Numbered from the stretch's first letter, positions 41-60,927 are shown. The stretch is 64,000 bases of DNA from Candidatus Methanomethylophilaceae archaeon (GCA_944320495.1 CALUHR010000006.1:31275-95274), one strand, 5' to 3'. The notes: generated by a model from the sequence alone, not told the origin. Translations and numbers: made by a program.

Positions 41-487
41 TCGGACCAGGTCGTGCAGGCGTGCGTGGTCCCTTTTCATGGCATCGAACTCAGCATTCGG
101 ACAATTCCTTTCCAGGACCTGCAGGGCTCTCGCAACATCCCTCGGAGAGATGGCGATCATGTCCCCGCGGCCGTGGCCGTACCAGACCTGGACGCATCTC
201 GTATGCGGACTGCTCACTTCAACGACTCTCCGGATGTCGACATAGAGGACGCGACTCCTTCCCTACTGGATCGGATCACGCACAGTGATGCCGGTCCCAT
301 CGAACGCATAGCATGTCAAGGAAGGAATCATGACGAGGTAGAGCTCGATGAAGAACAGGATCCCGATCATCAGCCGACACCTCTCCGGCATTGCCAGTAT
401 CATCAGGAGCACGATGACGAGCGAGAGCACCATGCACAGATGGATTGCGGGACCTGCCCTACCTCTCAATCTGATGATGTCGGACAT
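41..487 (-). CDS. Small membrane protein with possible PH-like C-terminal domain; in-frame TAG at 263-265; ends at CGA 41-43
   Basis: ATG at 487, two hydrophobic segments. After the TAG the frame stays open with plausible sequence (GRSRVLYVDIRRVVEV...ISPRDVARALQVL). Domain call is inference. Confidence 0.5.
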
Positions 488-530
488 GGATAACCCATCT
501 TCTGTATGAGATTCGTCAGAGTCGATGTTC

Positions 531-2822
531 TCGGAAATCGAAGAGGCTGGCCTGTCTCGGGCCCGCCTCGCCCTTGCCTTCTTCCTTCTTCTCTTCGACG
601 ACGGTCTCGGAGGGTGCGTCTGCATCGCCGGGCTCCCCGTATGCGGCGGCCATCTCGTCGATCAGCGCCTCCTCCTCGGATGGGGACGTGTATCCGACCG
701 GCTCCGCCGACTTTCCCGCCTGCCTGAGCATGGCCTCCGCCATCCCTCTGCCGATCCCGGGGACCGTCGACAGCACCGACACGTCGGAGGCGGCGACCTC
801 CGCCTTGGTCCTGATCCCCCTGTCGAAGAGGGCCCTGGCCCTGGCCCTGCCGATGCCACGGAGGGACACGAGGTCCATCAGCTCCTCCTTTACGCCGTAG
901 CGTATCCTGGTGGAGAGCGGTCTGATCCTTCTGATCGCGGGCGGGTTGAAGATGTAGGCGATCTCGCCCATGGCGTAGATCATCCAGTCCATCATGTCGA
1001 TGCGGCTGCGGATGTCGCCGGGTCCGATGCCGAACCCCGAGGTCATGGTGCCCTCCGGCACCTCCGAGATCCAGTCCTCGGTGACCAAGGCGACCTTCAG
1101 GTCGCTGCCGAAGAGCTCGTACATGTAGTCGTCGCGCTCCGCCGGGTCCACCAGCAGATCATCCTCGTGCTCCGCCTCGAACGCGGACACGCGCTCCTCG
1201 TCGCACTTCTTGGGGTACATGCCGAGCACGTCGGGAGTCATGGCGGCCGCCACGAGTATCAGCAGCTCGTCCGTGTCCTCATCCATCTTCATCACGGCGT
1301 CCCTGAGGATGGAGGCGGACTCGGGGTCGATGCACAGGTCGGAGACCCTCCTCCCGAACGGGAGGACCTCAATCGTCCCTCCCTGGCGGCGGACCATCTG
1401 CTCCCTCTCCAGGAAGTCGACGACGCTCTCCACCGCGCTCTCCACTCCGAACATCTGGGACGTGGCCCCGTAGAACGTGCGGCGCAGGAACTCCACGATG
1501 GATTCCTCGGAGTCGGCGTCGCCGGTCGCGAGAACCCCAAGGATGTGCGTCCTGATGACGTTCCCGTTGAACAGCTGGGACTGCACCCTCTCCGTGTCGT
1601 GCTCGATGTAGTCCTCCCTCAGATGGCCGGCGTCGCGGACGTTCTTCGCCATGAGGACGGCCTCGCCGTAGGGGTCGTATCCCGGCCTCCCGGCGCGTCC
1701 GCACATCTGCTTGACCTCCATCACCGGGATGGGCACGCTGCCTCCGTTCTCGAAGCGGGTGGTGTCCCTCACGATGACCCTGCGGGCCGGGAGGTTGATC
1801 CCGGCGGCGAGCGTCGGCGTCGCGACGATGCACTTGATCAGCCCCGACTTGAAACCGTCCTCCACGGTGCGGCGCTGCCTGTAGGTAAGCCCCGCGTTGT
1901 GGAACGCAGCCCCTCCTGCAACGCACTGAGCCAGCTTCCTGCCGACATCGGTGGCCTCCGCATCCCCCTCGAGGGCGGACCTCTCCGCCGCCGACAGGGC
2001 CCTGCCGTGGCCATGTGCCAGCTTCTCGGCGAGACGTGATGCTGCGGCCTCTGTGGACCTGCGGGAGCTGACGAAGACCAGGCACTGCCCGCCCGAGTCC
2101 AGGGTCTGCATGACGAGAGCCTCCAGATCGTCCTTCGGATTGGGGACGTCCAGGGATGACCCGTCGTCGAAAGTGATCCTCCCGTCCAGGTAGACGCCCT
2201 CCCTAAGGGGGACCGGCCTCCATGAGCTCCTGACCAGGTCCGCGTCCAGCCAGTTGGCCAGGTCGATGGCGTTGGAGATGGTCGCCGACAGGGCGATGAT
2301 CTGGAGATCCGGGTTCCTGCCCATCATCTTGGTCAGCGTGACCTCGAGCGTGGGCCCCCTCCCCGGGTCGTGGATCATGTGGACCTCATCCGCGATGACG
2401 AGTCTCACGTCCCTCATCCAGGGGCTCCCGTGCCTGATCATGGAGTCGGCCTTCTCGGAGGTGGCGACCACCACATCGGCATCGGACAGCCCGCGGTCGT
2501 CACTGTCCAGATCCCCGGTGCTCATGTGAATCCTGAATCCCAGCCTCTCGGAGAAGACGTCGAAGTCGTCCCTCTTCTCGGCGGCGAGAGCCTTCAGCGG
2601 AACGATGTAGAGGACCTTCCCGCCGCGCTGTGCCAGCAGCTTGAGGGCGGGGACCATGCCGATGAGCGACTTCCCGCTCGCCGTCGGTATGGCGGCGACT
2701 AGGTTCCTCCCCTCAAGGGCTTTGGGTATAGCCTCGGCCTGCGGGGGATGGAGCTCCCTGAACCCTGCGGACATGAGCGCGTCCGCGACCGAGTCCGGGA
2801 TGTCCAGCTCATCGACCCTCAT
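531..2822 (-). CDS. hel308: Ski2-like SF2 helicase Hel308/Hjm
   Basis: Walker A IPTASGKS, DEVH, TPTLAAGINLPA, QMCGRAGRP, C-terminal HhH. Ends QASLFDF then CGA (531-533); standard-code ORF ends at 516. Confidence 0.95.
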
Positions 2823-4008: not shown

Positions 4009-4071
4009 ATCCGCGGGAGTTATGAATGACTATTAATACAAGAACAAACACAGTGATTTCAGGAGGATATC

Positions 4072-8659: not shown

Positions 8660-9261
8660 ATGGACCTCGAGATCGCTGCCTCCGCGCTGGAGAGCAGGGG
8701 TTACTCAGTGTCGATCCATTCGGACAGGCTTCCGCAAGGGACCACATAGTCTCTGGATGCCGGGGATGCGTGATCGGGTTCGGCGACTCCCGCACTCTGG
8801 AGGCAATGGCCCTCGGCGATGCGCTCTCAGGCTCCTGCACCGTCATCGACCCGGCCCGGACCACGGACAACGACTCATTCCTAGAGGTGGCCCGCTGGGC
8901 GATGTCCGCGGACGTGTTCGTGACATCTGTCAACGCCATGTCCGAGGACGGCGTCATCGTGAACATCGACGGCACCGGCAACAGGGTCGCCGGCTCGCTA
9001 TTCGGTCATCGCAGGATGATCTACGTCATCTCCCGCAACAAGATCGTCCCGGACTTGGATTCCGCCATCGAACGCGCCCGGAACGTCGCCGCACCCATGA
9101 ACGCCAGGAGATACGGTCTCAGGACGCCATGCGTGAGGGACGGCAGGTGTCATGACTGCCGTTCTCCTGACCGTATATGCAACGCGCTCCTCGTCCAGCT
9201 CCGTAGCATGAACGACATGGATGAGGAGGTCGTGCTGATCGACGAGGACCTGGGTTTCCGA
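8660..9261 (+). pseudogene. LUD-domain (LutC/YkgG-like) protein with a one-base frameshift near 8722-8728; ends at CGA 9259-9261
   Basis: N-terminus MDLEIAASALESRGYSV lies in a different frame from ASARDHIV...VIGFGDSRTL...NIDGTGNRVA...DEDLGF. Could be an assembly error. Confidence 0.7.
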
Positions 9262-9268
9262 GGTCCTC

Positions 9269-9742
9269 TCGCATCGATCCTATGCGGGAGTGCAGACCCT
9301 CCTCACCCCAGACGATCCTGTCCAGATCCCCGTCGTTCCTGTCAACGGTTGTGATGATGAAGGACAGCAGGGCGCGGAGGAAGTCTTCGGACGGCACGTT
9401 CCCCTGGTAGGGGCAGACGTACTCGAATGTTACCATCCCCTTGTCAGGATGGAGGACGAAGCATCCCAGTTCGACCTCGCCGTTCAGTGCATTGATCGCC
9501 CGCAGGACCTCTGTCTGCCTCTCCTCCGGGACGGTGATGCCCAGCACCGAGGAGATCGTGAGCCATCCGTTCTCCGCCGTGGCCAGCAGACCAATCTCCA
9601 TGTCATCTCCCGGGATGATGCAGTCGAGGCTCAGCCCGCTCTCATCCCTGTTGCGCTCGTCGGAGACATCCCCGATGATCCTCCAGATGGTCTCGAGCAC
9701 CATCTTGTCAATCTTTCCCTGAAAGTCGAACAGCCCTGCCAT
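9269..9742 (-). CDS. YbjN-like (type III secretion chaperone-fold) protein; ends at CGA 9269-9271
   Basis: Pattern of VLRAINALNGEVELGCFVL...GMVTFEY resembles YbjN; standard-code ORF overruns to 9119. Confidence 0.6.
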
Positions 9743-9803: not shown

Positions 9804-10346
9804 ATGACCCGGAACAGCTACTCCGGGAACTCCCTCGTCATCGGGAGGTTCCAACCGCTCCACAACGGACATATGGAGGTCCTCATGAAGTGCGCGTCCG
9901 AGTCCGAGAGGCTCATCGTGGGCATCGGCAGCGCGCAGTACTCCCACCACCCGTCCAATCCATTCACGGCCGGGGAGCGCTACCTCATGATCGACGAGTC
10001 CCTCAGGGAGGCTGGGATAGACAACTACAGCATCGTCCCCATCGAGGACCTGAACAGATACTCGGTGTGGGTCGCCCACGTGGAGTCGATGTGCCCTCCG
10101 TTCGGCAGGGTCTACACCAACAACCCGATGACCCGCAGGCTATTCGAGGAGGCGGGGTACGAGGTCAGCAATTCCCCCATGTACGACAGGTGTCGCTATT
10201 CGGGCACCGAGATCCGGAGGAGGATCCTCGAGGGCGAGGAGTGGAGGCATCTCGTGCCAGAGGCCACGGCACGCGTCATAGACCAGATAGACGGCGTGGG
10301 GCGCATCGCGGCCATCTTCAAGGGTGATTCCGGTGCTCCCCTCCGA
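9804..10346 (+). CDS. nadM: Nicotinamide-nucleotide adenylyltransferase; ends at CGA 10344-10346
   Basis: IGRFQPLHNGH motif, SNPFTAGER, SGTEIRRRI; standard-code ORF overruns to 10853. Confidence 0.9.
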
Positions 10347-10815
10347 GGTCACCGAGCTTCTGGACATCCTGGGTTCCCGGGGGCTGACCCTCGCATGCGC
10401 CGAATCCTGCACCGGCGGGATGATCGGAGCCGCGATAACCGAGATGCCGGGCGTGTCATCGATTTTCATGGGCAGCGCCGTCACCTACAGCAACGACGCC
10501 AAGGAGTCCATTCTAGGGGTGTCCCACCGGACGCTGCTGGATCACGGCGCGGTGAGCGCCGAGACCGCCGGGGAGATGGTCCGCGGTGCGATGCGCGCCT
10601 ACGGATCGGACACCGCGATCGCGGTCACCGGCATAGCCGGCCCAGGAGGGGCCACGGCGGAGAAGCCGGTCGGGCTTGTGTACATCGCCGTCGCAGACGG
10701 GCCGAGGGTTGTCGTCTCCAGGAACGTCTTCGACGGGGACCGCGCCCATGTCCGCGCATCCACCGTGAGGGAGGCGTGCAGGCTCCTCCGCGAGCTGATC
10801 GAGGGCAGGCTGCGA
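10333..10815 (+). CDS. cinA: CinA/PncC family NMN deamidase; ends at CGA 10813-10815
   Basis: AESCTGG, AVTGIAGPGG, KPVGLVYIAV motifs; GTG start at 10324 or 10333; standard-code ORF overruns to 11553. Confidence 0.88.
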
Positions 10816-14911: not shown

Positions 14912-15454
14912 ATGCCAGCAGCCCTGATACTGTGCGGAAGCGCGCGCGAGGACGGAGTCACCGAGAGGATGTGCCGCACCGCATCGGAGACCCTGGAGTC
15001 GATGGGATACGACACCGTCTCCATCCGCATCACCGACGATGTCTCCCATTGCAGGGACTGCGGACTCTGCAGGGGCGGCCGTTGCGTCCTGGACGACGCG
15101 ATGTCGGGGATATACGAGGAGTTCGCGAAGGCGGACCTCCTGGTGCTGGCGACACCGGTGCACTTCAGCGGCCCGTCGTCGCTGATCAAGTCCGCCGTGG
15201 ACAGGTTCCAGCCGTACTGGTACAACAGGGGCCTGTCCCATCCGTCCGTCGCCCTGGGACTCGTCTGTGCGGGAAGCGACTCCCCCAGGTTCGGACCCAC
15301 CGAGAGCATCTTCAGGGCGTTCTGCGCAACCGTCGGGATGAGATGGCTGGGTCAGTTGGAGTTCCCCGATACCGACAGGAACGGAGGGGAGGGCGCGGCG
15401 GAGGCCGTGGAGGGATTCATCAGAAGCGCGGTCGGAGCCTCAGCGGAGCAATGA
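14912..15454 (+). CDS. NADPH-dependent FMN reductase / iron-sulfur flavoprotein family
   Basis: GSAREDGVT, CxxCxxC...C motif, ATPVHF. Confidence 0.85.
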   Translation: MPAALILCGSAREDGVTERMCRTASETLESMGYDTVSIRITDDVSHCRDCGLCRGGRCVLDDAMSGIYEEFAKADLLVLATPVHFSGPSSLIKSAVDRFQPYWYNRGLSHPSVALGLVCAGSDSPRFGPTESIFRAFCATVGMRWLGQLEFPDTDRNGGEGAAEAVEGFIRSAVGASAEQ

Positions 15455-16112
15455 GGAGGCCGGTGCAGCATCCCTCCATGGCGGACCCGTCGGTGACGAA
15501 CGGGACGCTAAGGGGATGCAGGTCGAGGACCCTCTCCCACTTGTATGCGGTCACCGAGCCGTCGGTGTCCAGGATGCACGTCCTATGGAATCCCAGATCA
15601 TCCAGGCGCCCGATCGTCTCCCTCAGGTCCGCCGGAGCGATGGAGCGGTTCACGACCTTGCCGTTCCTGACGAACACCGTCGGGATGGCGCTGTCCGACA
15701 TGGACAGGATATCCTGGAGATCATCGTCCGACGCCACCGCGTGATAGGGGAACAGAACCGACTCCGCGGTCGTGTTGAACGCGTCCATGAGGTCGTCCGC
15801 GTCCTGCACCCATGCCAGGAACCATATGTCCCGTCCGCGGAGCCTCATGCCCTTGAGGACGGCCTCGCGGAACCCGCGGGCACGTATGCTGTCCCAGTCG
15901 ACGACCACGGCGGGTTCGCGGGTCTCTCCGCGCGGGATCGATGCCGCCGCGTCGGCGAACGGGATGACGCGGTCCCCCGTCTCGGGGAGGCATCTCCCCT
16001 CGGGTACGGAGACGGCGCCGATGGCGTCCTCTCCCATCTCGACTGCGAACACGGCCGGGATCTGCATGTCATCCCCCAAGGCCAGCATCGCGTATAGCGG
16101 TTGCGGGGACAT
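15432..16112 (-). CDS. Hypothetical protein, possibly a HisA-like barrel; first CGA 15432-15434, TGA four codons later
   Basis: Coding-like codon use; fold is a weak inference. Confidence 0.5.
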
Positions 16113-25846: not shown

Positions 25847-28609
25847 ATGGAATCCTCTGGAGAACGGGCCTCCAATCTGTCGGTGAGGGCGAGATCCCTT
25901 TGGGCGAAGGTCTCGAATCAGAGAGGTAGCTCCGATTGGCTATCGCTTCCAACCCACATGAGCGACTCATGTATGGTATGCAGGGAGATCTGGAATGATT
26001 GGGTCAGTCCGGCTGTGAAAAGCATCATTGTTCGTGGGATTAGCATGTCCGACGGTTCCGATGCTTCTTTGGAAACGGCAGAGGGATTGGCATTGTTTCT
26101 TGCCGCCGCTCACGATCTTGGCAAAGCGTCCCCCGCGTTCCAATGTAGGATCATACCATCCAATCTTGATATTCAGGAGGAATGTCGTCAGAGGCTGGCA
26201 GGTTCAGGTCTTGAATTGAATCTAAATCTAAGCCAGTCTCATTCCCCGAAGCACGCTATCATCTCGGAGATGATCCTTGAGAGGAATGGAATCGACCGTA
26301 CCATTGGTGTGGTTCTAGGAGGGCATCATGGTAAGCCGCCGGGTTTTGCGGATCTCGAGAATCTCAGCGCTTACAGCGGACACACGGGATCGAAATCGAA
26401 GTCATGGGTAGAGGTGCAGGACGAGCTCCTGGTTTTCGCATGCCAGCTGTCATCATTCGATCTCGGGATGGTGCGCCAAATAAGACTGGATCTCCAATCG
26501 CAGGCTGTACTGACAGGTCTCGTGATAATGTCCGATTGGATGGCCAGCGATGAGACTCTCTTCCCCTATTCGGAGGATGGGATCGGACAGTCGACATCCG
26601 AGCGCATCGGGGAGGCATGGGCCAGCATAGGTATCAGGAGATGGGATGCGGAAGACGAATGGTCGTCATATGACCTCTACGAGGGAAGGTTCGGATTCAC
26701 GGCCAGGCCATTCCAGAGAGCAGTGGCGGATGTCGCAGCCAATGTCTTCGGACCATGTATGATTGTGATCGAGGCACCGATGGGTGAAGGTAAGACAGAA
26801 GCTGCCCTGGTGGCCGCAGAGACGCTGGCGAGCAGATTCGGGGATGGGGGAGTGGTATTTGCGCTGCCTACACAAGCCACCGCTGACGGGATATTCAAGA
26901 GATTCCTGGATTGGGCAGAGAAGGCGTCCCCTGGTTTCGATCGTCATTCGATATTCCTCGCTCATGGGAAATCCAGATTCAACAATCAGTTCAACAGGCT
27001 CAGATCTTCAAATATGAGGGTCGGGGGCGAAGATGGCAACTTGGTGTCAGGCAACATCGTAGCCATGGATTGGTTCAGCGGTCGCAAGAAGGGGCTGTTG
27101 TCCGATTTCGTCGTAGGGACTGTTGATCAGGTTCTAATGGCTGGTCTTAAGCAGAGGCATCTGGCCTTGAGGCATCTGGCCTTGTCAGGCAAGGTCGTGG
27201 TGATTGACGAATGTCATGCTTATGATGCTTACATGGGCAGTTATCTCTCACTCGTGCTGCGTTGGCTGGGGTCTTACAGAGTGCCCGTCATACTGATGTC
27301 TGCCACTCTTCCCTCGGGGACCCGTAGGATGCTCATGGAGTCCTACTCCAACAGTAGCGTCGATCAAACCGAAGAGGATTCCATGGCGTATCCGAGGATT
27401 TCCGTAGTGGATGGAAACGAGACATCCTATGTATTTCCCGGTTCTTCATCAAGAAGGTATGATGTCAGAATCGAGCGCGTCACGGATTCGGAGATGATGG
27501 ACAAGCTGCATGCATTTCTGCAGAACGGGGGATGTGCCGGTGTTATAGTCAATACCGTTGCCCGTGCACAGGGATTCTACGAGAAACTGAAGTCAGAATA
27601 CCCAGATGATCGTGTAATTCTCATCCATTCTGCGTTCACCGGAACCGATCGTTCGGTCATAGAGTCGGATGTCATGGATGCTCTGCATGAGGCCCACAAC
27701 ACTCAGCAGACGAGGACGATCGTTGTCGGGACACAAGTGTTGGAGCAATCCCTGGACATTGACTTCGATTTGCTGGTCAGCGACATTTGTCCCATGGATC
27801 TGCTGATCCAGCGTATCGGACGTCTGCACAGGCATGACAACCCGCGTTCCTCCAAGATGGCCGAAGCGACATGTCTGGTCCTCGACACAGATAGTGAGGA
27901 ATTCGAGAAGGGTTCGGAGGCCGTCTACGGCAGATTCCATCTGATGAATGCCCGTCTGCTCCTTCCGGAATCCCTGAACATACCGGACGATATCCCGAGG
28001 TTGGTCGAATCCGCTTACGATCCATCCGGGATCCCATGGGGGACGGAAGTCTTCGAGGATTATCTCGATGCCAAAAGGGATGATAGTGACCTGATATCAA
28101 TCGAGAGGAGGAAGGCAAGGGCTTTCCAGATCTGTCGTCCGGACAGGTCTCCGGAAGGCGATGGCAGTCTGGTGGGATGGCTAGAGATGGCCCTGTCGGA
28201 CAAAACCGAAAGAATGGCGGAATGCACAGTCAGGGATGCAGATCCGTCGGTGGAGGTCATCCTGGTATGTCGCGATCATGCGGGGAATTTCAGAACTTTG
28301 CCCTGGGTGGGGGAGACCGGAGGTTCGATCATACCTCCGGATTCCTGTCCGGATGTCGGATTGGCATACGAGATGGCAGGGTGCAAGATACGCCTGCCGG
28401 GCAGATTGACCCGCAGGTACAACATAGATGAGACTGTGAATAAACTAGAGTACATTATATAGCAAAACATCATACCTCAGGTGTGGCAGGAGTCCCATTG
28501 GCTCGCAGGGGAACTCTTCCTCCTGTTGGATGAGGACCTGACGGTGACGTTCGAGGGGCTCAGGATGAGGTACGACAGGGAGTATGGAATGAGGGTTTGC
28601 GATGATCGA
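25847..28609 (+). CDS. cas3: Type I-E Cas3 (HD nuclease-helicase); in-frame TAG at 28460-28462; ends at CGA 28607-28609
   Basis: HD motif (AHDLGK), APMGEGKTE, DECH, QRIGRLHRH. A Cas3-like C-terminus (WQESHWLAGELFLLLD...YDREYG) continues in frame past the TAG. Confidence 0.9.
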
Positions 28610-30152: not shown

Positions 30153-30157
30153 ATGAT

Positions 30158-31860: not shown

Positions 31861-31861
31861 G

Positions 31862-32575
31862 ATGCCTACCGTGCTGCTGAGGCTGGCCGCGCCCATGCAG
31901 TCATGGGGTGTGGACAGTGTATACAACACGAGATCCTCGGGCGTGATGCCATCTAAGAGTGCCGTGATAGGGCTTGTGGCCTCCGCCATGGGGCGCTCGA
32001 GGCGTGATGTGCTGGACGATCTCAGCGACCTCAGGTTCGGTGTCAGGGCGGATCAGCCCGGAAGGATGATGAGGGATTACCAAACGGTCGGGAATCCGAA
32101 GAAGGACGAGGTCATGTTCACCATCGACCGTTACTATCTGTCGGACGCCATATTCCTGGCAGGTCTGGAAGGGGATGCGGGCATCGTAGGGGACATAGAC
32201 GCAGCTCTAAAGAGCCCCATGTTCCCGCCGTTCCTCGGCAGGCGCTCATGTCCTCCCACCCAGCCTCTGTCGTTGGGCGTCCGTGATTTCGGATTGACAG
32301 AGGCGCTGTCACAGGAGGGGTGGCAGGCATCCGCATGGTACAGACGCAAGTCCCTGCCGAAGGTCAGCCTGGAGGCGGTCATGGATTCCGATGCCGAAGG
32401 GGCGGATTCCATGGTGCGCGATGTGCCGGAATCGTTCGATCCCAGGCGTCGCGAGTACGGATACCGCCAGGTGCGTCATGTTCTCGATTTCGTATCGTTC
32501 GATAATCCGGACAGTCGCAGAAAACCGATCGTCACGGATCACGACCCCATTTCAGTGATCAGGGGGTCCAGCCGA
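31862..32575 (+). CDS. cas5: Type I-E Cas5; ends at CGA 32573-32575 in a CGATG overlap with cas6e
   Basis: LLRLAAPMQSWG, PSKSAVIGL, FLGRRSCPP; standard-code ORF ends at 32629. Confidence 0.92.
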
Positions 32576-34166: not shown

Positions 34167-34919
34167 TAGTGGTGGTCCTCTCCTGCTGTCCTCCTTCGCT
34201 ACGCGGGGATCTCACGAAATGGCTCTTCGAGATCAGCACCGGGGTGTATGTCGGCCATATCGCCGCCCGTGTCCGCGATTCGCTCTGGGAGCGCATAGTT
34301 TCCAGCGTTGGTTCCGGAAGGGCGATCATGGCGTTCTCGGCAGATAACGATCAGAAGTTCGATATCCGCGTCCACAACACGGAATGGGGTCTCGAGGAGA
34401 TTGATGGGATCAAGGTGATGATGCGCCAGGGGGTCGGAGACACGATGAGAGGCGGGTTCAGCAACGCCAGCCGCATGCGCAGAGCGATGAATCCCAAAAC
34501 GGACAGGCAGGACTCCTGTTACACCGCAGTTCATGTAGGCTACAGCTCCCCCTCCCTCGAGATCGGACGCATCACAGAGGTGGATTTTACGACCGTCCGC
34601 AACGGACGCATCGTGGAAAGGGGACAATGGAGGGAGGGACAGTCCGATGTTCTGCTCAAGGAATCGCTGGATGCGATCTCGCGGTCGGAGAGGGTGGTCA
34701 TGTATCGTGCGGGGAGGCAGGTGCAGTTCCTTGCAGGATCAGTCAACACACGTCCTGGATCGGGAACGTGTAACGGATGTGTCCGAGTTGGTGAAGGGGA
34801 GACTACATAATCTCGGGGATACAGGTCTGGAATCCGTGTGCAGGAATCTTGGTATAGATCCAGATGAGAGGTCCTGTAGCGGTTCGATAGTCCGGATTTA
34901 TGAATCATTGCATAAACGA
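34163..34919 (+). CDS. cas2: Type I-E Cas2 fused to a degenerate, frameshifted DnaQ/DEDDh-like domain
   Basis: LRGDLTKWLFEISTGVYVG (Cas2), then GFSNASRMRR linker. The DnaQ-like tail continues in another frame after about 34730 and reaches CGA at 34917-34919. Confidence 0.8.
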
Positions 34920-35025
34920 TATTATTTTGGCATCAGAATGTTGATAGACAACTAAATTTTTATCGTCCTTTTGGTGATAATCCCGTGAGAGGTTCCGCGC
35001 GTCTGGCTCATCCATTTATTTTGGT
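34920..35025 (+). promoter_or_regulatory. CRISPR leader
   Basis: AT-rich stretch between cas2 and the first perfect repeat. Confidence 0.65.
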
Positions 35026-38841: not shown

Positions 38842-39321
38842 ATGGAGCAGATCAAGGGAAGGGTCTGGGTCTTCGGCGACAACGTGGACACGGACCAGAT
38901 CATACCGGCGGAGAGGCTCGTCGCGGCGAACCTCGACCACCTCAACGACTACATATTCGAGAAGGTCAGGCCCGGATTCGGGCAGCAGGTGCAGAAGGGC
39001 GACATCCTCATCGCCGGACGCAACTTCGGATGCGGTTCCAGCAGGGAGCACGCGCCCCTCTCGCTCCGCGAGGCCGGCTTCTCGTGCATCATCGCCGAGA
39101 GCTTCGCCAGGATCTTCTACCGCAACTCGTTCAACACCGGGCTCCTCCTGGTGGAGTGCAAGGTGGACGCGAAGGAGGGCGACACCGCCACCGTCGACGT
39201 CGACAAGGGGACGGTGGAGTGCGGGGGCAGGGAGTACACCTTCCCCGAGTACCCGCCGTTCATCACCGAGCTCATCCGCTCCGGCGGGCTCATGAACCTC
39301 ATCAAGGAGGGGAAGTTCCGA
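38842..39321 (+). CDS. leuD: 3-isopropylmalate dehydratase small subunit; ends CGA-TGA overlapping the leuB ATG
   Basis: GDNVDTDQIIP, NFGCGSSREHA. Confidence 0.93.
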
Positions 39322-43039: not shown

Positions 43040-43465
43040 TCGGGCCAGGTACTCGTCCAGGACGTTCAGGGCATCCTTGACCATGTCGACCTTCATCTTG
43101 ATGTTGTGGTACATGAACCCCATGCCGCTTGCGGTGCTGTCCACGACGCCTCCGGTCTCGGCGAGGTGCTCGTTGCCGATGTTCCTGACGCCGTTCATCC
43201 TACCTGTGGTGGATTCGATGTACTCCTCCAGGTCGTCCCTGCAGGTCCTCGGGTCCTCCCTCGGGCCGTCCGCATCGTAGAGGAGGACGTTCCTGGATCC
43301 GCAGTACGGGCAGGTGTCGAGTCTCATGTCCATTTCCGGGAGGGAGAGGCGGCTGTCCTTGCACACGAACACCTCCGCGTTGTACTGTGTCAGGAGGCGC
43401 TGGCAGCAGCACAGGACCATCCTGTCGTCGATCATCAGCAGTTTGCCGATGGGGGCTCTGAGCAT
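43040..43465 (-). CDS. Hypothetical protein with a CPYCGS Zn-ribbon; ends CGA-TAA
   Basis: CCC and CPYC motifs, host-like codons; start ATG 43465 inferred. Confidence 0.6.
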
Positions 43466-44620: not shown

Positions 44621-44634
44621 AAGGAGAATTTCAA

Positions 44635-46641
44635 ATGTCAACGAATGCTATCACCAGATTTGGTTGCATTATTGTTGCCATTCTACTTCTGGCTACAGTT
44701 GCAACCGGTGTGGCTGAATCCGCACCATCTGACAACTCATCATCGAACAGTGATGAGGTAAAGCCCAATCCACTAAATTTGCCTGCTATGTGCTATTCCA
44801 ATGAAGCTCATGCACAGACAAAGTTTGGCTATGCATATGCAACAACGGCTATTGGCACATGGAGAGGAACATGGACCGATAGCGGACATTGGATGTATGA
44901 ATACGGATTGACTGGAATTGGTTCGTATGATGCAAGCCGTATTTTTGGAGCCAAGTTTGAAGTCAAGGAGATTGAAAATCCTTCTGCAATGACACTGTAT
45001 CTGGGTGTCGATGAGGGGGGTGTCTGGAGCACTAATGGTTCAGATGGCTCACAAATGGCTATCAGTAATGCAGCTGAGGCGATAATTGGTGTGGCTATTT
45101 CAGCAATAGGTGGGCATATCGATTCTGCTTGGACTGCTGTAACGACAATAATTGATCTAATGAAGTCAGGGGCTTCTCATACTGAAGCCCAATATTCAGA
45201 TTTGTTGAGTTGGAATTGGTTGGTAGGGGTTGAAGAGACTGGTCAGTATTCCTCTTTCGTTGTCCAAGTGGATGCCGATAATACAGCCTCAATATCGACA
45301 GAGTACTCCATCTACTATGGAAGCACAGAAGCCGATATAAAGTGGCTGTCAACAGGAGTGTTCGAATTCCAAATGCCTGCCACTGGCAATCCCAACACCA
45401 TGACCGAAGAGGAAAGGATCGAGAACAATATCATAACCGTACCAAGAGACCAGATTGCGTATAAGGCGGCCGAACTGGACATATCCCCGTCTCAGGTGAA
45501 GTCTCTCATAGAGTCTGACCAGGATGAGTTCTACTTCATAGGAACGTCTCCGATCTGTCTTTCACATGATGTACAGGAGATGCAGTCAGTTCCGGTTTCT
45601 AACGAATCATATATGACATCTCAGGTTCCGGAAACCACCGAACTCGTCGTTCTTTCCGACTCGGATGCAACCATCTCATCTATAGAGATGCCATGCAACG
45701 TATCCATCCAAACGACATTCGATTCGATCGGCAGGGACGACATCGTTCTCATCGACGGAGATTGGGCAACCACGGTGGAGCGTCATCAGTTGAACTCCAA
45801 GGTTCGTGATCTCGTAGACAGTGGTAATGCCGTTCTGTTGATGTCCGAGTCTTCGGAACTCATCTCTTCAGAGAACACAGGGTATTCGACGGCTTTTGCT
45901 ACCGATGCAGATGTGTATGGGATACGTCACGATCCTCTATCAGGTGCCACGTACTGCTATAGCTATGTTGGAATGGATGCAGAAGACTCCATGCTGACCG
46001 CATACGAGTGGGCCGAATCATACAAGACGGCCAATATCACGAGAAATGCTACCACTGACCCTCCGATTCTATACGCCTTCACCAAGGTCAATCAAGGAGG
46101 GCTCGGAGAGATGGTCATCGAGACCAAGTACACCAAGAGTAGCACCGACGACTGGGAAGTGAATCTGATATTGACCGAGTACAGTCTCACCGGAACCCCA
46201 TATCCGGATTCCTCCCTCTTCGAGAACAATAAGGCCATTGCCGACATGACGATATCATGCGAACATGTGAACTCGGAGCTTCTGGACTATGGTCCTTCAT
46301 TCTCATCCAGTACACTTGAAAACCACACTGTCGATTTGGAAGCGTTACAGTCCACTGTGCACGTCGAAAAGAACTGGGACTATACGATTCTGGAATGCGA
46401 GACCACCGTCAACGTACAGGGTGATTCCTTCGAGATACACTACGACACTGACGAATATGGTAGCCACAAGACAGAATCAAAGACTGCGAGACCAGGAACT
46501 ATATGTTTGGCAACGAATGAAGGACCATACTGCTATCAGGAAACTGAGTACTACTCGGTGAACTATCTGTTGGACAAGGCATGGTCATTGGAGGACACAT
46601 ACACACTCGATGAATGCTCGATGGTCGTGTCCATATTCCGA
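44635..46641 (+). CDS. Large secreted Ser/Thr/acidic-rich protein (low-GC island); first CGA 46639-46641
   Basis: RBS AAGGAG, signal peptide; ...VVSIF-CGA-TGG-TGA. Confidence 0.7.
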
Positions 46642-46939
46642 TGGTGACAGAAGGATCGATGAAAGCAATCCAGTCAATCCGTCGACATGATCGGGGAAAC
46701 TTCCTCGCGAGACGGGTGTGAAACAAAGCCCTGTGAACAAACAGCCCCTTCCAGACAATGGAAGGGGCACATCCTCATCAGTATGTTGGGATCTTAGAAA
46801 CAATCTTCATTCGAGTTGGTAGGGTCCCCACCCCACAAAACTATCACGATTGGGCTGAATCTTACATCCAACCATCCATCTCGAACGCATCCTTGAATGG
46901 GCCGACAGAGAACTTCCTGTCAGTCGAACCATGCCTCGC

Positions 46940-48490
46940 TCGATGCCTCAGGGTCATCATCGGCGATTTCGGCAGCTGCGCATCCAATGCGGAGAGGATC
47001 CTGCGCGTCCTGGGCGTGGCGCCCACGGTCTGCCAGACTATGCCGTCCCCGCGGGCCAGTATGGTGTCCAGCCACCGTATAACATCGACCAGGGGATCCG
47101 AGTAACCGGCATCGGAGAGACGGTTCGACATCTCGCACCATAGGATCAGTGCGATGAAGCGGATCATGGACATCCCGTGCTCCTTCTCCTCCAGCAGGTT
47201 GATCCTGTCGATCATCAGGTCCTCCCTGAGCATCGATATCGCCTCATCGAACGCACGTCCGTTCTCGAGGCAGTCCATGACATCCTCCCATGTCTCGAAC
47301 CCGCGGGTGTAGAGGACCTTCACACCGTTGAGGGCCACATCCAGCTCGTCCTGTTTCACCGAGATCCGAAGGCGCCCGTCCCTGATGCCGATGTCGAAGA
47401 ACCGTGCGTAGCGTCCTGCGACGTCCCTGAACTGCTTGATGGCCTCCGCCGGATCGAGCTTCCTGAGATGTCTCTCGATGACGGTTATGCGGGCCATCAG
47501 GCGTTCGGGTTCCTCGACGTCGTCGTCCTCGCGTCTGAATGCCCAGACGGTTATGCGGTCCTGTGGGCGGGAGGTGTGGATCTTCGGATCCCCCTCGGAG
47601 ACGATCTCCATGGTTTCCGTGTCATCGGTCCTCTCGGGTGCCTCACGGAGTCCGCGGATGTGTTTCGATACGATGCCCGCCTCGACCGAGCATACTCTGT
47701 ACCTCTTGCCGTGACGCTCGTGCAGCTCGCCATCGTCGACCATCCCCGCGACCTTCACGGCACACGGCGTGTCCGGCAGCGCGGTGGTGATGAACTCCGC
47801 CCCGCGCTCCACCATCCTCTCGATCCATGCGGCGCTTCCGGGGTAGGTGCGTTCGTAGATGTAGGTGCATCTGTCGGCTCCGAGCTCACGCATGATCTTC
47901 ATGTAGTTGATCATCTCCATCTCCCTCAGGGACTTGTAGATGTCAATGGTGAAATGGACGGGGATGCCATTCCTGTCGTTCTCGAACATTATCACAAGGT
48001 CCGCATCGCCGAACACGGTGCTGCCGTCCTCGCCCACGATGCTGCTGTCATACGAGTATACCTGGGGGGCCCTCGCGACGCGGAGGCAGAAAAGCTCCCC
48101 GCGCCCATCGGCATCCGATCCCAGGTGCTCCAGCAGCTCGTCTATCATCGACGGATGGAAGACGTCCTCGATCCCGAGGAGCTCCCGGGACATGTTGCCC
48201 TCCATCTCCTCCTTGAATGATGTGGGATACGCACAGGATTGGAGCAGCGATACGGCACTGGCCAGTGCCCAGTCGCCGTATTGGCCGTAGGCCTTGCGCA
48301 GATCCTCCCTGAGGCCGCAAGATTCCGATATGCGGATCAGGGCGTGGCAGGAACCGAACTTCTTCGCCGTGAGTATGCCGGCGCCAACCGTGTACGGTCT
48401 CATCCTGAGCCTGGTCTCCTCGAGGGACCTGTCGATGTCCCTCGTCATCCTGTTGATGCGGTCGTAATCGTCGATCGGTCCTTCGCTCAT
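46940..48490 (-). mobile_element. IS1634-like transposase-derived gene, probably inactive; ends at CGA 46940-46942
   Basis: FGSCHALIRISESCGLREDL, RELLG, GIPVHF, WCEM...LSDAG; paralogous to the neighbour; standard-code ORF ends at 46862. Confidence 0.6.
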
Positions 48491-54031: not shown

Positions 54032-55438
54032 TCACTTCTTGAGCTGGTTCCTGTAGTGCTCGCAGTTGCTGATCGTGATTCCGAGGACCTTCTCGATGTT
54101 CATCTTGGCGGGGAGTCCCTTGGGGCTGTTGGGCTGGCCGGTGACGACTCCGAGGCCCTCCTTGTCCCTGATGTCCCTGATGAAGTTCTCCTCGGTGAGC
54201 TGGAACGGGTCGATCTCGAGCTTGTCGGCGACGTACTTCTTGGCGGCGTCGATCTTCATGTTCTTGGCGAACTGCATCCTGCAGACCAGATCGCCGGTGG
54301 TCCTCATTCCGCCCATTCCGGAGCAGAGGCCGTGGGCAACCGCCATGGAGGCGATGTCCCCGGATCCGACCTATATTCCGTCGATGTTGGCGATCTCGAT
54401 GAGGATCTTCGCGGCCCTCCCGGTGATGTCGGTGGGAGGAAGCTCGCACATCGGGATTCCGCCGACACCCATTCCCATGTTGGCGTGGACGGGGATGTTG
54501 GCGACCTTGACGCATTCCTTGGTGATGACGGCGGAGCGGGCGGCGTTCCAGGCGAAGCTCTTGGAGGTGTTGGTGTTGACGACGGATCCGAAGATGTTGA
54601 CTCCGGCCTTCTCGCACAGCTTGACCTGCTCGTGGGGGTACATTCCGGCGACGACCTTGCCGTCGTACTCCATCCCGCCGTGGATTCCCAGGACGGTCTC
54701 CGCGGACATTCCGCACTCGATGTAGGCGTTGGGGTTGGACTTCCTGTAGTTCTCCATTCCCTTCAGGGTGGCGACGAACTCGGCGTCTCCGGCGGAGGCG
54801 ACGGTGTCGAAGTTGAATCCCTCGCAGCCGACCTTGTCGATCTCCTGGCAGACGTATCCGATGTCCCTGGTGAGGTGCTCGGCGGCAGCCTCGGAGGCGG
54901 CCATGGACTCCTCGATCTTGAACTCCCTCATGAGGTCGGTGGGGTTCGCGTAGGGTCCGTCGGGGGCGTAGTAGAGACCCATGTTGGGCATGGCTCCCAT
55001 GACGAGAGGCAGGGTGGTCAGCATGGCCATCTGCTCGTAGTTGGAGGTCTCGCAGTTGATGACGGCCTTCACGGGCTTGATGGAGTAGTCCATCCAGGCG
55101 AGCTCCATGGAGTCGAAGGTGAGGGACCTCTCGTAGACGAGGAGACCCTCGAGCCTGCCCATGCAGGGGATGGCGTTCCCGCTTCCGCCGTTGTCCTGGT
55201 TGAATTTGATGGCACCGGCGTCCTTGGAGAGGCAGACCTCCCTTCCGGGCTCGATGCTGGTGATCTTGCTCTTGTCGCAGACGATCTCGTAGATGCGCTC
55301 CATCTCGTCCTGGGAGAGCTCAGGGACCTGGGCGGCGTCGGCACCGTCAGCCATACCAGCGACGATGTCGGACATGATCTGCTCCTTGGTCATCCTGACC
55401 CTTCTGCCGTCTCCCATCCTCGTTATGTAGTCTTCCAT
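54032..55438 (-). CDS. mtbB: Second dimethylamine methyltransferase, Pyl at codon 356 (TAG 54371-54373)
   Basis: MEDYITRMGDG; IDGI-TAG-VGSGD; in frame with 54032-54346. Confidence 0.95.
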
Positions 55439-58188: not shown

Positions 58189-58938
58189 AACGAATCACCA
58201 GTCGAATTCCATTTCACCGGATGCTGCATGGACGAACGGGTCGAAACCTCCGGTAGAGGCTTATGGCATACTGAACGGGATACCCCCGTTGATAACTAAC
58301 CATCGCATTCGTTTTGCATTTCACACCCTCCCGGCTCACCCTCTACGGGCACTAGCCGGAAATCTCGGGAGGCTCAGGATCTCTGCGCCCATCCAGTGAT
58401 TTGCTGATTGAAACGACAAGACATGGGTTTTTAAAACAATGTATTAACGGCGTTGATTTAGAGAGTTAAACTGTAATCGTTTGGATTAAATTGTTAAATA
58501 AATTAGTATGAACTCGGGATTGGATGGAATCTAAGAAAAAATTAAATATAAGTGTATGAACGTGAAAAATATTGAATTAATTTTCATCAGTAGTGTTTAC
58601 AGTATGACATAATTTCGGCAGTTGTGTGGATAAAAAGACATTTAATGTAGATTCATACGCAGGTTAACTAATTCCTCGATTCGAACAATGTTCATTTTCG
58701 GATATTGGAGATAGCGGATAACATCAGTCATCATCCCATTGGAAGCAGGTCCGTATTTCAGACCCGAGGGGAACGATCATTGATGGAGGTCGAGGGAATC
58801 GTACGTACTGTCGATCGATATGAGGTGAGGAATTAGGTCTCTATTTTTCTTGTTATAATATATGGGGCGAGTAGGATTGTTAAATTATTTTATATAATCC
58901 GTACGGGATGGAAAGATGCCCTTGACGGAGATGCCGAC

Positions 58939-60927
58939 ATGAGGATTGGACTTGGTCTCGATACCGGAGGTACGTACACAGATGCTGTCATAATGGATCT
59001 TGAGAGGGGGGAGGTCCTCTCCAAGGCTAAGTCCATGACGACGTACGAGGATCTGACGATCGGCATTGAGGGGGCCATCGATAGGCTGGACCAGTCCCTT
59101 CTGGGGTCCCTGGGGGTCGTCGCGCTCTCATCCACGTTGGCCACCAACTCGGTCGTCGAGGGAAAGGGTTGTCGTGTCGGCCTGATATGCATCGGAGGCG
59201 AGTACGATCGCACCCTCGGTGCGGACTACATGATCTCCGTCAGAGGCGGGAACGACATACACGGGGATGAACTGGAGCCGTTGGGCGTCAAGGAGGCCGA
59301 GGAGTTCATGCGCTCCATAGTCGGCAAGGTGGAGGGTCTGGCGATATCCGGGTACCTGTCGGTCAGGAACCCGGCCCAGGAGAAGAGGCTCAAGGAGATG
59401 GCCAAGGCGATCCTAGATGTCCCCGTCGTGTGCGGGTACGAGCTGACCTCCGAGCTGGGGTTCAACGAGCGCACCACCACCTGTATCATGAACAGCAGGC
59501 TCATTCCGATAATGGACGAGCTCATACGCTCCGTCCGCAAGGCTCTCGATGAGAGAGGTATCAGGGCACCGCTGATGATATCCCGCGGAGACGGGAGCAT
59601 GATGACCGATGCGGTAGCACGTGAGCGTCCGGTGGAGACGATCCTCTCGGGTCCTGCGGCTAGTCTCATGGGTGCCATGCACATGACGGGCATTAGGGAC
59701 GCTGTTGTCATGGACATGGGCGGGACGACCACCGATATCGGGATCCTCAGGGATGGTCGCCCCAGCCTGGACCGTGAGGGCGCCATCATAGACGGGAAGA
59801 GGACCAGGGTGATGGCTGCGAGGGTGTATACATCGGGCATCGGAGGCGACAGTCGCATAGTGGTGAATCCCGGGAGCGTCATTCTCACGCCACAGAGGGT
59901 GATCCCGCTGTGCGTGGCCGCCCACAGGTGGTCGGAAGTGGCGGAGGGTGTCAGGACCCTCACACAGAAGCTTCCGCATCATCTCACGCGCCCTCTGAGC
60001 AGGCCGGAGCTCCAGAACTTCGATTACGAGTACTTCCATACGGTCAAGGACCCGTCCGAATCATTCGTCATGGGTGAGTACGACAGGAGGTTCCTGAGGC
60101 TCGCGAAGGAGCGTCCGGTCACCCTGAGGATCGCCACCATGGAGCTTGGATGCAACACGTACGACATCCAGATTCAGAGGATGGAGGAACTCGGACTCAT
60201 ACAGAGGGTTGGCATAACACCGACCGACATCCTCCATGTGGAGGGAAGCTACAGGGAGTTCGATTCGACGGCATCCGAAATCGGAGTGAGGTATCTCGCA
60301 TCACTCGTCGATGTAAACGTCGACCAGTTCGTCACCATCGCCAAGCGTGCCATACGCAACAAGTTGTGCGTGGAGCTTATGAAGGCCCTGATCACCGAGG
60401 ACTCCGGCGAACCCAACCTTGGGACCACGGGAATGGACCTGCTCATGAAGGGGATAACCTCCCGTCTAGGCAAGGACTTCGGGTGCTCCATCATCCTGTC
60501 GAAGCCTATCATCGGCATCGGTGCCCCTTCGGGGGTCTACATGAGATGGGTGGGGGAGGCCCTGCACACCGATGTGATGATCTCGGTCGATTCCGATGTC
60601 GGTAATGCCGTCGGGGCCGTGTGCGCATCCATATCGGAGTCGGTGAAGTACGTCATCAGGCCGATGGTCCCACGCCGGGAGGGTGCGGTCTACGAGGTGT
60701 TCTCCAAGATGGGTCGCAAGTGGTTCGCCACCCTGGAGGAGGCCATGGAGTCTTGCGAATCAGAGGCCAGGGAATACGTCACGGAGGCGGCGCTCGAGAA
60801 CAACGCGGACGTCGTCGAGATATCCGTGGACCTGGACAGGAAGCCGTACATATATATCCCGGGCGAGGGACGTCTGGACGAGGTCACGATGGTCGTGACC
60901 GCGGCGGGGAAGCCAAGGATGTTCCGA
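58939..60927 (+). CDS. Hydantoinase/oxoprolinase family (ASKHA ATPase) protein; ends at CGA 60925-60927
   Basis: GLDTGGTYTDA, ALSSTLATNS, ETILSGPAAS, DMGGTTTDI; standard-code ORF ends at 60951. Confidence 0.88.

What the first reader, a model, noticed from the sequence alone, without database searches (positions are those of the whole stretch)
41..60927. CGA behaves as a stop codon: candidate new genetic code
Seen: in the genes I read codon by codon (hel308, nadM, cinA, thiF, purC, mgtA, most of the TerB gene, all cas genes, leuA, the AlbA gene, both transposase-like genes, mtbB, hydantoinase) I found no internal in-frame CGA, although CGT, CGC, CGG, AGA and AGG are all used. The first in-frame CGA instead falls at the expected C-terminus: hel308 QASLFDF-CGA (531), LUD DEDLGF-CGA (9259), YbjN-like (9269), nadM (10344), cinA (10813), 15432, cas3 (28607, 8-nt overlap with the cse1 ATG), cas5 (32573, CGATG), cas2 tail (34917), leuD (39319, CGATGA), 43040 (CGA-TAA), 46639, 46940, hydantoinase KPRMF-CGA (60925) and 41. 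Reading CGA as stop removes implausible overlaps of 55 to about 700 nt. About 37 other genes end in TGA; none uses TAA or TAG as primary stop. Established: archaea read the CGN box with separate GCG, UCG and CCG anticodon tRNAs, so losing tRNA-Arg(UCG) would free CGA alone. Inference: CGA was reassigned from Arg to termination (altered aRF1, stall-and-rescue, or C-to-U editing), alongside UAG=Pyl. I know of no prokaryotic CGA=stop code.
Basis: partly seen in the sequence, partly recalled or inferred. Interest (0 to 1): 0.97.

Follow-up and report, generated by a model that had tools for sequence, protein, structure and literature searches.

The report
CGA used as a stop codon
In this gut methanogen (family Methanomethylophilaceae, the genus that holds Candidatus Methanoprimaticola) the arginine codon CGA ends about a fifth to a quarter of all genes and has almost vanished from inside genes, and I found no published description of such a sense-to-stop change in a free-living prokaryote.

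Summary
All 15 reported sites are in-frame CGAs.

- **Frame specificity.** Only 4 in-frame CGAs in about 430,000 codons of 1,334 predicted genes have coding signal on both sides. About 38,000 out-of-frame CGAs inside the same genes are not depleted.
- **Gene ends.** Third-position GC falls from 0.83 to 0.55 exactly at the first CGA near a gene's end.
- **Orthologues.** They carry TGA, TAA or TAG within two codons of the window genome's CGA. nadM alternates CGA and TGA at one codon across 12 species. A near-identical Hel308 ends ...FDF-TGA where the window has ...FDF-CGA.
- **Not a spike-in.** The public NCBI protein matches the read-through Hel308 exactly.

The change is not a clean reassignment. 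The tRNA-Arg(UCG) gene is kept, but its anticodon arm is defective in every genome of the genus I checked. The release-factor gene aRF1 has exactly one in-frame CGA, at conserved Arg78, in all 31 genus genomes.

My best reading: aRF1 out-competes a weakened tRNA at CGA, and a few programmed sites are still read as Arg, possibly to autoregulate aRF1. This part is inferred. No RNA or protein data could be obtained. I found no paper describing it. First-stage readers flagged the same thing on eight other windows of this genome.

The parts
531..533 (-). CGA terminator of hel308 (gene 531-2822), 4 codons before a TGA
   Evidence: 770 codons upstream are open with no stop or CGA. A strain at least 90% identical ends ...CTC TTC GAT TTC TGA at this exact codon. 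The read-through form is the public NCBI protein.
9259..9261 (+). CGA terminator of the LUD-domain gene (8770-9261); 30-codon tail to the next TGA
   Evidence: My caller places the end of coding signal here. The Pfam LUD domain matches residues 3-146, and the CGA is codon 164.
9269..9271 (-).
   Evidence: It has no Pfam match, so it rests on the coding signal alone.
10344..10346 (+). CGA terminator of nadM (9804-10346); 168-codon Arg-rich tail over cinA
   Evidence: The Pfam cytidylyltransferase domain is complete at residues 12-140. The tail is out-of-frame junk. In 12 species of the genus this same codon is CGA in 6 and TGA in 6. Other families of the order have open frames close to the protein's length.
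10813..10815 (+). CGA terminator of cinA (10333-10815); 245-codon tail over the next gene
   Evidence: Pfam CinA matches profile positions 7-154 of 155 at residues 8-155. The CGA is codon 161 and nothing matches the tail.
15432..15434 (-). CGA terminator of gene 15432-16088, 3 codons before a TGA
   Evidence: The tail is short, so this site is weak on its own.
28607..28609 (+). CGA terminator of cas3 (25847-28609), overlapping the cse1 ATG at 28602
   Evidence: With the TAG at 28460 read through, the Pfam Cas3_C domain (profile 1-107 of 107) covers residues 796-915. It spans the TAG (residue 872) and ends 6 codons before the CGA at residue 921.
32573..32575 (+). CGA terminator of cas5 (CGATG overlap with the next gene's start)
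   Evidence: The Pfam Cas5 domain is complete (1-217 of 217) at residues 50-252, before the CGA at codon 285.
34917..34919 (+). In-frame CGA at the tail of the cas2-region ORF; 11 codons to TAA
   Evidence: only. The region has low codon bias, so this is not independently supported.
39319..39321 (+). CGA directly followed by TGA at the end of leuD (38842-39321), with the next gene starting in CGATGA
   Evidence: It is a tandem CGA-TGA, so it cannot discriminate between the two as the stop.
43040..43042 (-). CGA directly followed by TAA at the end of gene 43040-43465
   Evidence: It is a tandem CGA-TAA, so it cannot discriminate on its own.
46639..46641 (+). CGA 1 codon before the TGA of gene 44617-46647
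   Evidence: 680 codons upstream are open without a CGA. The tail is short.
46940..46942 (-). CGA terminator of gene 46940-48490; 25-codon tail to TAA
   Evidence: Coding signal ends here. It has no Pfam match.
60925..60927 (+). CGA terminator of the hydantoinase/oxoprolinase gene (58993-60927); 7 codons to TAA
41..43 (-). In-frame CGA near the end of a gene that runs off the window's left edge
   Evidence: The gene is cut by the window edge, so this was not evaluated further.

Best explanation
In this archaeon and its genus, CGA ends translation at the natural ends of roughly 17-26% of genes and has been purged from gene interiors. The genus belongs to Methanomethylophilaceae and includes Candidatus Methanoprimaticola sp. 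MG2.

The likely mechanism is competition at the ribosomal A site. The single release factor aRF1 wins at CGA, which differs from UGA only in its first base. It wins because tRNA-Arg(UCG) has been weakened: its anticodon stem has only four pairs, or it carries C33.

The tRNA is kept because a few programmed in-frame CGAs must still be read as Arg. The clearest is Arg78 of the aRF1 gene itself. That site would give negative feedback like the in-frame UGA of bacterial prfB: abundant aRF1 terminates its own synthesis, and scarce aRF1 lets the tRNA read through.

Shown by sequence: CGA marks the end of coding, aligns with orthologues' stop codons, and is frame-specific; the tRNA is altered; the aRF1 CGA is conserved.

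Inferred: that aRF1 is the agent of release, that the tRNA is weak, and that there is autoregulation.
For: 1. **End of coding.** The sharp GC3 step at CGA is not seen at any of 14 other codons tested, most of them rare.
2. **Purge from interiors.** 4 interior CGAs in about 430,000 codons, against about 38,000 undepleted out-of-frame CGAs.
3. **Stop-position test.** Genes that end in CGA in this genome have orthologues ending within two codons. In the genus these are TGA 30 and CGA 9. In other genera of the family, TGA 12 and TAA 3. In other families, TGA 7, TAA 3 and TAG 2. nadM is 6 CGA and 6 TGA at one codon. Hel308 is TGA against CGA.
4. **Real public sequence.** The read-through Hel308 is an exact NCBI protein on a 95,274-base contig. 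The relatives come from many independent assemblies and one culture-level genome.
5. **tRNA-Arg(UCG).** In 11 aligned species the acceptor, T and upper anticodon stems pair fully, 6 pairs change on both sides, and pair 31-39 is mismatched in 11 of 11. G091 shows the same mismatch. G008 and G015 have C33 and a 27-43 mismatch. Seven outgroup genomes have normal 5-pair stems.
6. **aRF1.** There is one copy plus Pelota. It has exactly one CGA, at Arg78, in 31 of 31 genus genomes, flanked by invariant [G/T]CT and CTN while neighbouring synonymous sites vary. The Arg is conserved in solved aRF1 structures. 'CT' is the rarest context after real stops, at about 1%.
7. **Weak-terminator signs.** The CGA-stop share falls from 45% in the lowest codon-bias quartile to 5% in the highest. 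A backup standard stop lies within 5 codons in 25% of cases, against 16% after TGA.
8. **Precedent.** Yeast eRF1 can act on CGA (PMC7379694, abstract only).
Against: - There is no RNA, ribosome-profiling or protein evidence.
- The aRF1 decoding motifs NIKS and YxCxxxF are unchanged. Only six genus-specific substitutions were found, none in those motifs or in the GTS-loop equivalent, so nothing in aRF1 explains recognition of C at the first codon position.
- A tRNA with anticodon UCG is present, so some read-through of every CGA stop is possible.
- No conserved RNA structure supports programmed read-through at aRF1 codon 78.
- My gene caller is home-made. Low-bias spurious ORFs may inflate the 26% figure and the quartile trend.
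- CGA-stop use is uneven within the genus, from 0 to 24% in samples of 33 to 100 kb.
Confidence: 0.85

Rival explanations
1. CGA is an effectively unassigned, 'hungry' codon. Ribosomes stall there and are freed by a rescue pathway (Pelota/ABCE1 splitting and peptidyl-tRNA hydrolase). Genes end at CGA without aRF1 ever recognising the codon.
For: The aRF1 decoding motifs are unchanged. The tRNA looks crippled. CGA stops are concentrated in low-bias genes, as expected for a costly way to finish. Pelota is present.
Against: Use at about a fifth of genes, many without a backup stop (median 22 codons to the next one), is a heavy load for a rescue pathway. The conserved single CGA inside aRF1, rather than inside Pelota or a hydrolase gene, points to aRF1 as the sensor.
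Confidence: 0.1
2. Site-specific C-to-U editing of the mRNA turns the terminal CGA into UGA, so the code itself stays standard.
For: CGA and TGA differ by one transition and interchange at orthologous stops. CGA stops have a preferred 3' context, with T at +4 in 54%, which could serve as a recognition motif.
Against: An editing enzyme does not know the reading frame. About 38,000 out-of-frame CGAs lie in coding sequence. They include 7,830 NCG|A sites where editing would change the amino acid, and they are not depleted (0.92 of expectation). In-frame interior CGA is almost absent. Editing the aRF1 codon 78 would destroy the release factor. From my own knowledge, mRNA C-to-U editing is not known in archaea.
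Confidence: 0.03
3. CGA is only a very rare Arg codon. Proteins carry the tails up to the next standard stop, or the CGAs are assembly or base-calling errors for TGA.
For: A tRNA-Arg(UCG) gene exists. Annotation under table 11 gives the extended proteins, and these are in public databases. CGA is demonstrably read as Arg in aRF1.
Against: The tails have non-coding composition from the first codon. They run up to hundreds of codons over neighbouring genes in other frames, for example 168 and 245 codons. They have no Pfam match and are not conserved between species. The same pattern appears in dozens of independently assembled genomes and at a conserved Arg in aRF1, which rules out a TGA-to-CGA error.
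Confidence: 0.02

Closest known systems
Sense-to-stop codes of organelles (from my own knowledge): AGA/AGG in vertebrate mitochondria (NCBI table 2), TCA in Scenedesmus mitochondria (table 22), TTA in Thraustochytrium mitochondria (table 23)
   Same: A sense codon, an arginine codon in table 2, disappears from ORFs and is found at gene ends.
   Different: Those are tiny organelle genomes with about 13-40 genes and only a handful of such stops. Here a free-living archaeon with about 1,300+ predicted genes uses CGA at hundreds of gene ends. The cognate tRNA gene is retained.
Arginine-codon reassignments found by Codetta and KACI (PMC8629427; bioRxiv 10.64898/2026.04.02.715157)
   Same: CGA and CGG are the codons most often reassigned in prokaryotes. 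The 2026 preprint notes two hydrothermal-vent archaeal assemblies with no CGA in HMM-aligned regions and no tRNA-UCG. It raises, without testing, the possibility that CGA is a stop there.
   Different: Those cases are sense-to-sense changes (to Trp, Gln, Met or Ala), or an untested remark on a different lineage that also has CGG=Trp. As the preprint itself says, these methods cannot infer stops. Here the stop function is tested by position, CGG stays in use as an in-frame codon, and the tRNA is retained.
Autoregulated release-factor genes: the in-frame UGA with +1 frameshift in bacterial prfB (RF2)
   Same: The gene for the factor that reads a codon carries that codon in frame. Output of full-length factor therefore depends on the factor's own activity.
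   Different: Here recoding would be read-through by a near-defunct cognate tRNA at a conserved Arg, not a frameshift. No stimulatory structure was found. The feedback is inferred, not shown.
Dual-meaning stop codons: UAG=Pyl/stop in methanogens (PMC12626013) and context-dependent stops in ciliates (PMC4967479)
   Same: One codon both terminates and encodes an amino acid, and the outcome is set by competition and context.
   Different: The direction is reversed. Here a sense codon has become mainly a stop and keeps a residual sense reading at two to four sites per genome.
tRNAs with 4-base-pair anticodon stems in codon reassignment (PMC13092985)
   Same: A shortened anticodon stem accompanies a change in the meaning of a codon one base away from UGA.
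   Different: In those cases the short stem lets tRNA-Trp(CCA) read UGA, a gain of decoding. Here I propose that it weakens reading of the tRNA's own cognate codon. Its real effect is untested.

Membership tests
Variant genetic code with CGA as a terminator | The codon is absent or nearly absent from conserved interior positions of genes | tested here: met
   4 interior CGAs in about 430,000 codons. There are 0 in 12,262 homology-aligned window codons. Other genomes of the genus have 0.08-0.75 per 1,000 homology-aligned codons (0.08-0.39 in the samples of 60-100 kb), against 2.0-7.6 in other families.
Variant genetic code with CGA as a terminator | The codon aligns with the stop codons of orthologues | tested here: met
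   66 of 94 orthologue ends lie within two codons of the CGA, and 57 of them are TGA, TAA or TAG. See also nadM and hel308.
Variant genetic code with CGA as a terminator | Coding signal stops at the codon | tested here: met
   GC3 falls from 0.83 to 0.55 between the five codons before and the five after. Pfam domains are complete before it.
Variant genetic code with CGA as a terminator | Loss of the cognate tRNA | tested here: not met
   The tRNA-Arg(UCG) gene is present at C13:413317-413390 and in relatives, with compensatory changes. It does have a 31-39 mismatch, or C33, in every genome of the genus examined.
Variant genetic code with CGA as a terminator | The release factor is altered in its codon-recognition motifs | tested here: not met
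   NIKS and YxCxxxF are intact. The genus-specific changes are at positions 17, 142, 217, 250, 270 and 299 only.
Variant genetic code with CGA as a terminator | Proteins end at the codon (peptides, ribosome footprints) | not testable with these tools
Autoregulated release-factor gene (prfB-like logic) | An in-frame copy of the factor's own target codon, conserved across species | tested here: met
   CGA at Arg78 in 31 of 31 genus genomes, with invariant flanks. All 80 aRF1 genes fetched from the family have at least one CGA, and 66 have exactly one.
Autoregulated release-factor gene (prfB-like logic) | Factor level controls recoding efficiency | not testable with these tools
   This needs reporter or in vitro assays.
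aRF1 (archaeal class-I release factor) | Full-length similarity to solved aRF1/eRF1 structures, with the eRF1 domain present | tested here: met
   4af1 at E = 4e-108 over residues 5-408. PF03463 scores above its cut-off.

The most novel reading that the evidence does not exclude
This would be the first sense-to-stop codon change in a free-living prokaryote. In the genus that holds Candidatus Methanoprimaticola, CGA is a working terminator read by aRF1, with a residual, programmed Arg reading. The aRF1 gene senses its own activity through a conserved in-frame CGA. That 'one CGA in aRF1' rule extends across the whole family Methanomethylophilaceae, where CGA is already almost purged. If so, the family shows successive stages of a codon being captured by the release factor.
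Probability: 0.6. Interest if true: 0.97.

Novelty: new variant of a known kind. Interest (0 to 1): 0.93.

Why it matters
**Annotation.** Under table 11 roughly a fifth of the genes in these gut and rumen methanogens are wrong. They carry false C-terminal tails of up to hundreds of residues, and fused or suppressed neighbours. Public databases already hold such products: the 768-residue Hel308 of this genome is one, and the 1,180-residue members of its cluster look like further cases.

**Code evolution.** The family would offer living intermediates of sense-codon capture by a release factor.
- Other families of the order use CGA as Arg.
- Most sister genera have purged it but do not use it as a stop.
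- Species of this genus use it as a stop at 0 to about 25% of genes.

**Decoding mechanism.** It raises a testable question about how an eRF1-type factor tells U from C at the first codon position.

**Synthetic biology.** It would be a natural example of a fourth stop codon, with a built-in feedback on release-factor dosage.

Tried and rejected
- **Planted or altered sequence:** rejected. The read-through Hel308 is an exact public NCBI protein.
- **tRNA loss:** rejected.
- **Global CGA-to-UGA editing:** disfavoured by the dicodon counts.
- **A stimulatory RNA structure at aRF1 codon 78:** none found. The covariation term is about 0 and no pair is compensatory.
- **Motif changes in aRF1:** none in NIKS or YxCxxxF. 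A G-to-S change in the GTS-loop equivalent occurs only in this genome and its near-twin G018. G010 has a similar CGA-stop share without it.
- **A second aRF1 paralogue:** not found with PF03463 in this 90.6%-complete genome.
- **CGA stops in sister genera of the family:** a few candidates with 7-8-codon tails and one with 141. I could not establish them from 100-kb samples.
- **Look-alike windows of other genomes in the scan's earlier notes:** none.
- **Interior CGA on contig C8 at 98213:** an ordinary stop, with an ATG three codons later in the same frame.

Full report
**What the window is.** The window is G000:C6:31275-95274 of a 1.77-Mb, 14-contig assembly with about 61% G+C. Real genes have third-position G+C (GC3) near 0.87. 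Record titles of close relatives place it in Methanomassiliicoccales, family Methanomethylophilaceae. The genus includes 'Candidatus Methanoprimaticola sp. MG2' and many human-gut and ruminant MAGs.

**Checking the observation.**
- All 15 coordinates hold an in-frame CGA.
- CGA is the commonest CGN trinucleotide in the DNA, with 1,727 on the + strand. Yet the long real ORFs of the window have none inside them.
- I took 644 stop-to-stop ORFs of at least 300 codons with coding-type composition. In them, GC3 is 0.83-0.90 in every five-codon bin before the first CGA of the last 150 codons. It is 0.55-0.65 in every bin after it. CGG gives no step, and 13 other codons, most of them rare, show only a slight decline.
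- I then used a codon log-odds model that ignores CGA. Among 1,334 predicted genes (about 430,000 codons), only four in-frame CGAs have coding signal on both sides.
- In the same genes, out-of-frame CGAs are plentiful and not depleted. NCG|A occurs 7,830 times (0.92 of expectation) and NNC|GA 30,511 times (0.97).
- The phenomenon is therefore frame-specific, so it acts at decoding.
- Predicted terminators are 342 CGA, 926 TGA, 37 TAA and 29 TAG. The long-ORF set gives a more conservative figure of about 17-20% CGA.

**Is the sequence real?** The table-11 read-through Hel308 (768 residues, ending ...FDFREHRL) is an exact entry in the public collection, from NCBI, on a contig of 95,274 bases, which is the length of C6. 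The form truncated at the CGA is not in the collection. Members of the same 90% cluster from other assemblies have 763 residues. In one of them the DNA reads ...CTC TTC GAT TTC TGA where the window reads ...CTC TTC GAT TTC CGA.

**Comparative evidence.**
- nadM was recovered from 12 species of the genus. The codon after the last conserved residues (...APL or ...API) is CGA in six and TGA in six. Downstream sequence is unrelated between species.
- In the other families of the order sampled, the nadM open frame is about the length of the protein.
- For genes of this genome that end in CGA and whose alignments reach the end, orthologues terminate within two codons in 66 of 94 cases. In the genus these are TGA 30 and CGA 9. 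In other genera of the family, TGA 12 and TAA 3. In other families, TGA 7, TAA 3 and TAG 2.
- Pfam domains are complete before the CGA and nothing matches the tails.
The Cas3_C domain spans the in-frame TAG at 28460, and the gene ends at CGA 28607.

**Distribution.**
- CGA per 1,000 homology-aligned codons is 0.08-0.75 in eight other genomes of the genus (0.75 in the small 33-kb G010 sample).
- It is 0.14-0.36 in three sister genera (g10, g13, g14), 0.8 in g12 and 1.3 in g15.
- It is 2.0-7.6 in three other families, where CGA aligns mainly with Arg.
- The share of genes ending in CGA varies within the genus: about 20-22% here, 24% in G010, 8% in G004 and G013, 2-7% in G002, G008, G015 and G091, and 0 of 109 in G090. 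These come from samples of 33 to 100 kb.
- I could not establish CGA stops in sister genera.

**The tRNA.** ARAGORN finds tRNA-Arg with anticodons GCG, CCG, UCG, UCU and CCU.
- The UCG gene is retained. An alignment of 11 species shows fully paired acceptor and T stems, six pairs with changes on both sides, and an anticodon stem that covaries (TCAG/CTGA, CTAG/CTAG, TTGG/CCAA). Pair 31-39 is a mismatch in 11 of 11.
- A covariance model recovered the gene in complete genomes. G091 has the same mismatch. G008 and G015 instead have C33, where U33 is near-universal (my own knowledge), plus a 27-43 mismatch.
- Seven outgroup genomes (four sister genera with low CGA, g15 and two other families) have ordinary five-pair stems.
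- The gene is therefore under selection, but its anticodon arm is abnormal in every member of the genus I looked at.

**The release factor.** The genome has one aRF1 (C2:85936-87165, minus strand, 410 residues) and one Pelota.
- The best solved match is 4af1, at E = 4e-108.
- NIKS and YxCxxxF are intact. The genus-specific substitutions lie elsewhere.
- The aRF1 gene contains the only clearly interior CGA of the genome. It sits at codon 78, an Arg conserved in all 28 outgroup sequences and in the solved archaeal structures.
- The same codon is CGA in all 31 genus genomes examined. It is always preceded by GCT or TCT and followed by CTN, while neighbouring synonymous positions vary freely.
- 'CT' is the rarest dinucleotide after real CGA and TGA stops, at about 1% each. 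CGA stops prefer T at +4 (54%; CGATG 23%, CGATC 24%).
- aRF1 cannot work if cut at residue 77, between NIKS and YxCxxxF. So this CGA must be read as an amino acid, presumably Arg through the retained tRNA.
- Across 80 aRF1 genes of the family, every one has at least one CGA and 66 have exactly one. It always lies at an Arg column, but the column differs between groups (78, 25, 11, 123, 50).
- In sister genera, CGA makes up 0.3-0.6% of Arg codons. The chance expectation is therefore about 0.1 CGA per aRF1 gene (my arithmetic).
- I read this as selection for one CGA in aRF1 and propose autoregulation. That is inference.

**Other interior CGAs.**
- The gmhA-gmhB junction is a single open frame. 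Its junction codon is AAA (Lys) in two genomes of another family and AGA in two species of the genus. It is CGA in 10 species, with G011 carrying CGA one codon earlier, and TAG in one. In two species it is TAA followed by a frame change. No start codon follows the CGA here. This looks like a second programmed leaky stop.
- A third CGA, on C5 at 178733, has the context CGA CTG. It lies where two homologues have Phe and the protein continues into a membrane helix. Its meaning is unclear.
- The fourth is an ordinary stop with an ATG three codons later.

**Signs that CGA is a weaker stop than TGA.**
- The CGA share falls from 45% in the lowest codon-bias quartile to 5% in the highest.
- A standard stop follows within five codons in 25% of cases, against 16% after TGA. 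Still, the median distance is 22 codons.
- The quartile trend may be inflated by spurious low-bias ORFs.

**Literature.** Full-text searches found no paper on CGA or the genetic code of Methanoprimaticola or Methanomethylophilaceae. The nearest is a 2026 preprint. It notes, for two hydrothermal-vent archaeal assemblies with CGG=Trp and no tRNA-UCG, that CGA might be a stop, and it says its method cannot test this. A yeast study reports eRF1 acting on CGA (PMC7379694). First-stage readers flagged CGA stops on eight other windows of this same genome. My genome-wide counts cover those regions, but I did not check their individual sites.

**Verdict.** What remains unproven is the molecular agent (aRF1 release or rescue), how leaky CGA stops are, and the proposed aRF1 feedback. 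No expression or protein data were available to me.

Noticed in passing
window 28460-28462 (+), inside cas3 (25847-28609): An in-frame TAG lies inside the Pfam Cas3_C domain. That domain covers residues 796-915 of the read-through product, and the TAG is residue 872. So TAG appears to be read through, as Pyl or otherwise, in a non-methyltransferase gene.
   Followed up: partly
window 50380-51783 (+) and 54032-55438 (-): Two ORFs that stop at TAG run on in frame into a further ORF. The lengths are 355+103 and 355+104 residues either side of the TAG, with eight codons between the TAG and the next called start.
   Followed up: no
G000:C13:193621-194700 (-), locus L278/L279: gmhA and gmhB form one open frame whose junction codon varies between genomes: CGA in 10 species of the genus (G011 carries CGA one codon earlier), AGA in 2, TAG in 1, TAA plus a frame change in 2, and AAA in another family. 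This is a candidate programmed leaky stop that would yield both GmhA and a GmhA-GmhB fusion.
   Followed up: partly
G000:C5:178733 (+), locus L276: An in-frame CGA with the same 'CGA CTN' context as the aRF1 site. Two homologues have Phe at this position, and the protein continues into a membrane helix. It is either read through or a truncated copy.
   Followed up: partly
loci L196-L275 (aRF1 genes of 80 Methanomethylophilaceae genomes): Every aRF1 gene has at least one CGA and 66 have exactly one. It always lies at an Arg column, but the column differs between groups (78, 25, 11, 123, 50). This holds even though most of these genomes have almost no other in-frame CGA.
   Followed up: partly
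G000:C2:85936-87165 (-), aRF1 residue 28: This genome and its near-twin G018 have GRST where all other aRF1 sequences examined have GRGT, in the equivalent of the eukaryotic GTS loop. G010 has a similar share of CGA stops without this change.
   Followed up: partly
window 25847-35000 (cas operon): The cas genes have atypical codon usage, with more AGA and CGT and low scores in my codon model. They still contain no internal in-frame CGA.
   Followed up: no
G000:C1:21187-22227 (+), Pelota (locus L025:1486-2526): The Pelota gene itself ends ...ILRYRL-CGA and runs on in the same frame into the next gene, giving an 858-codon open frame.
   Followed up: no
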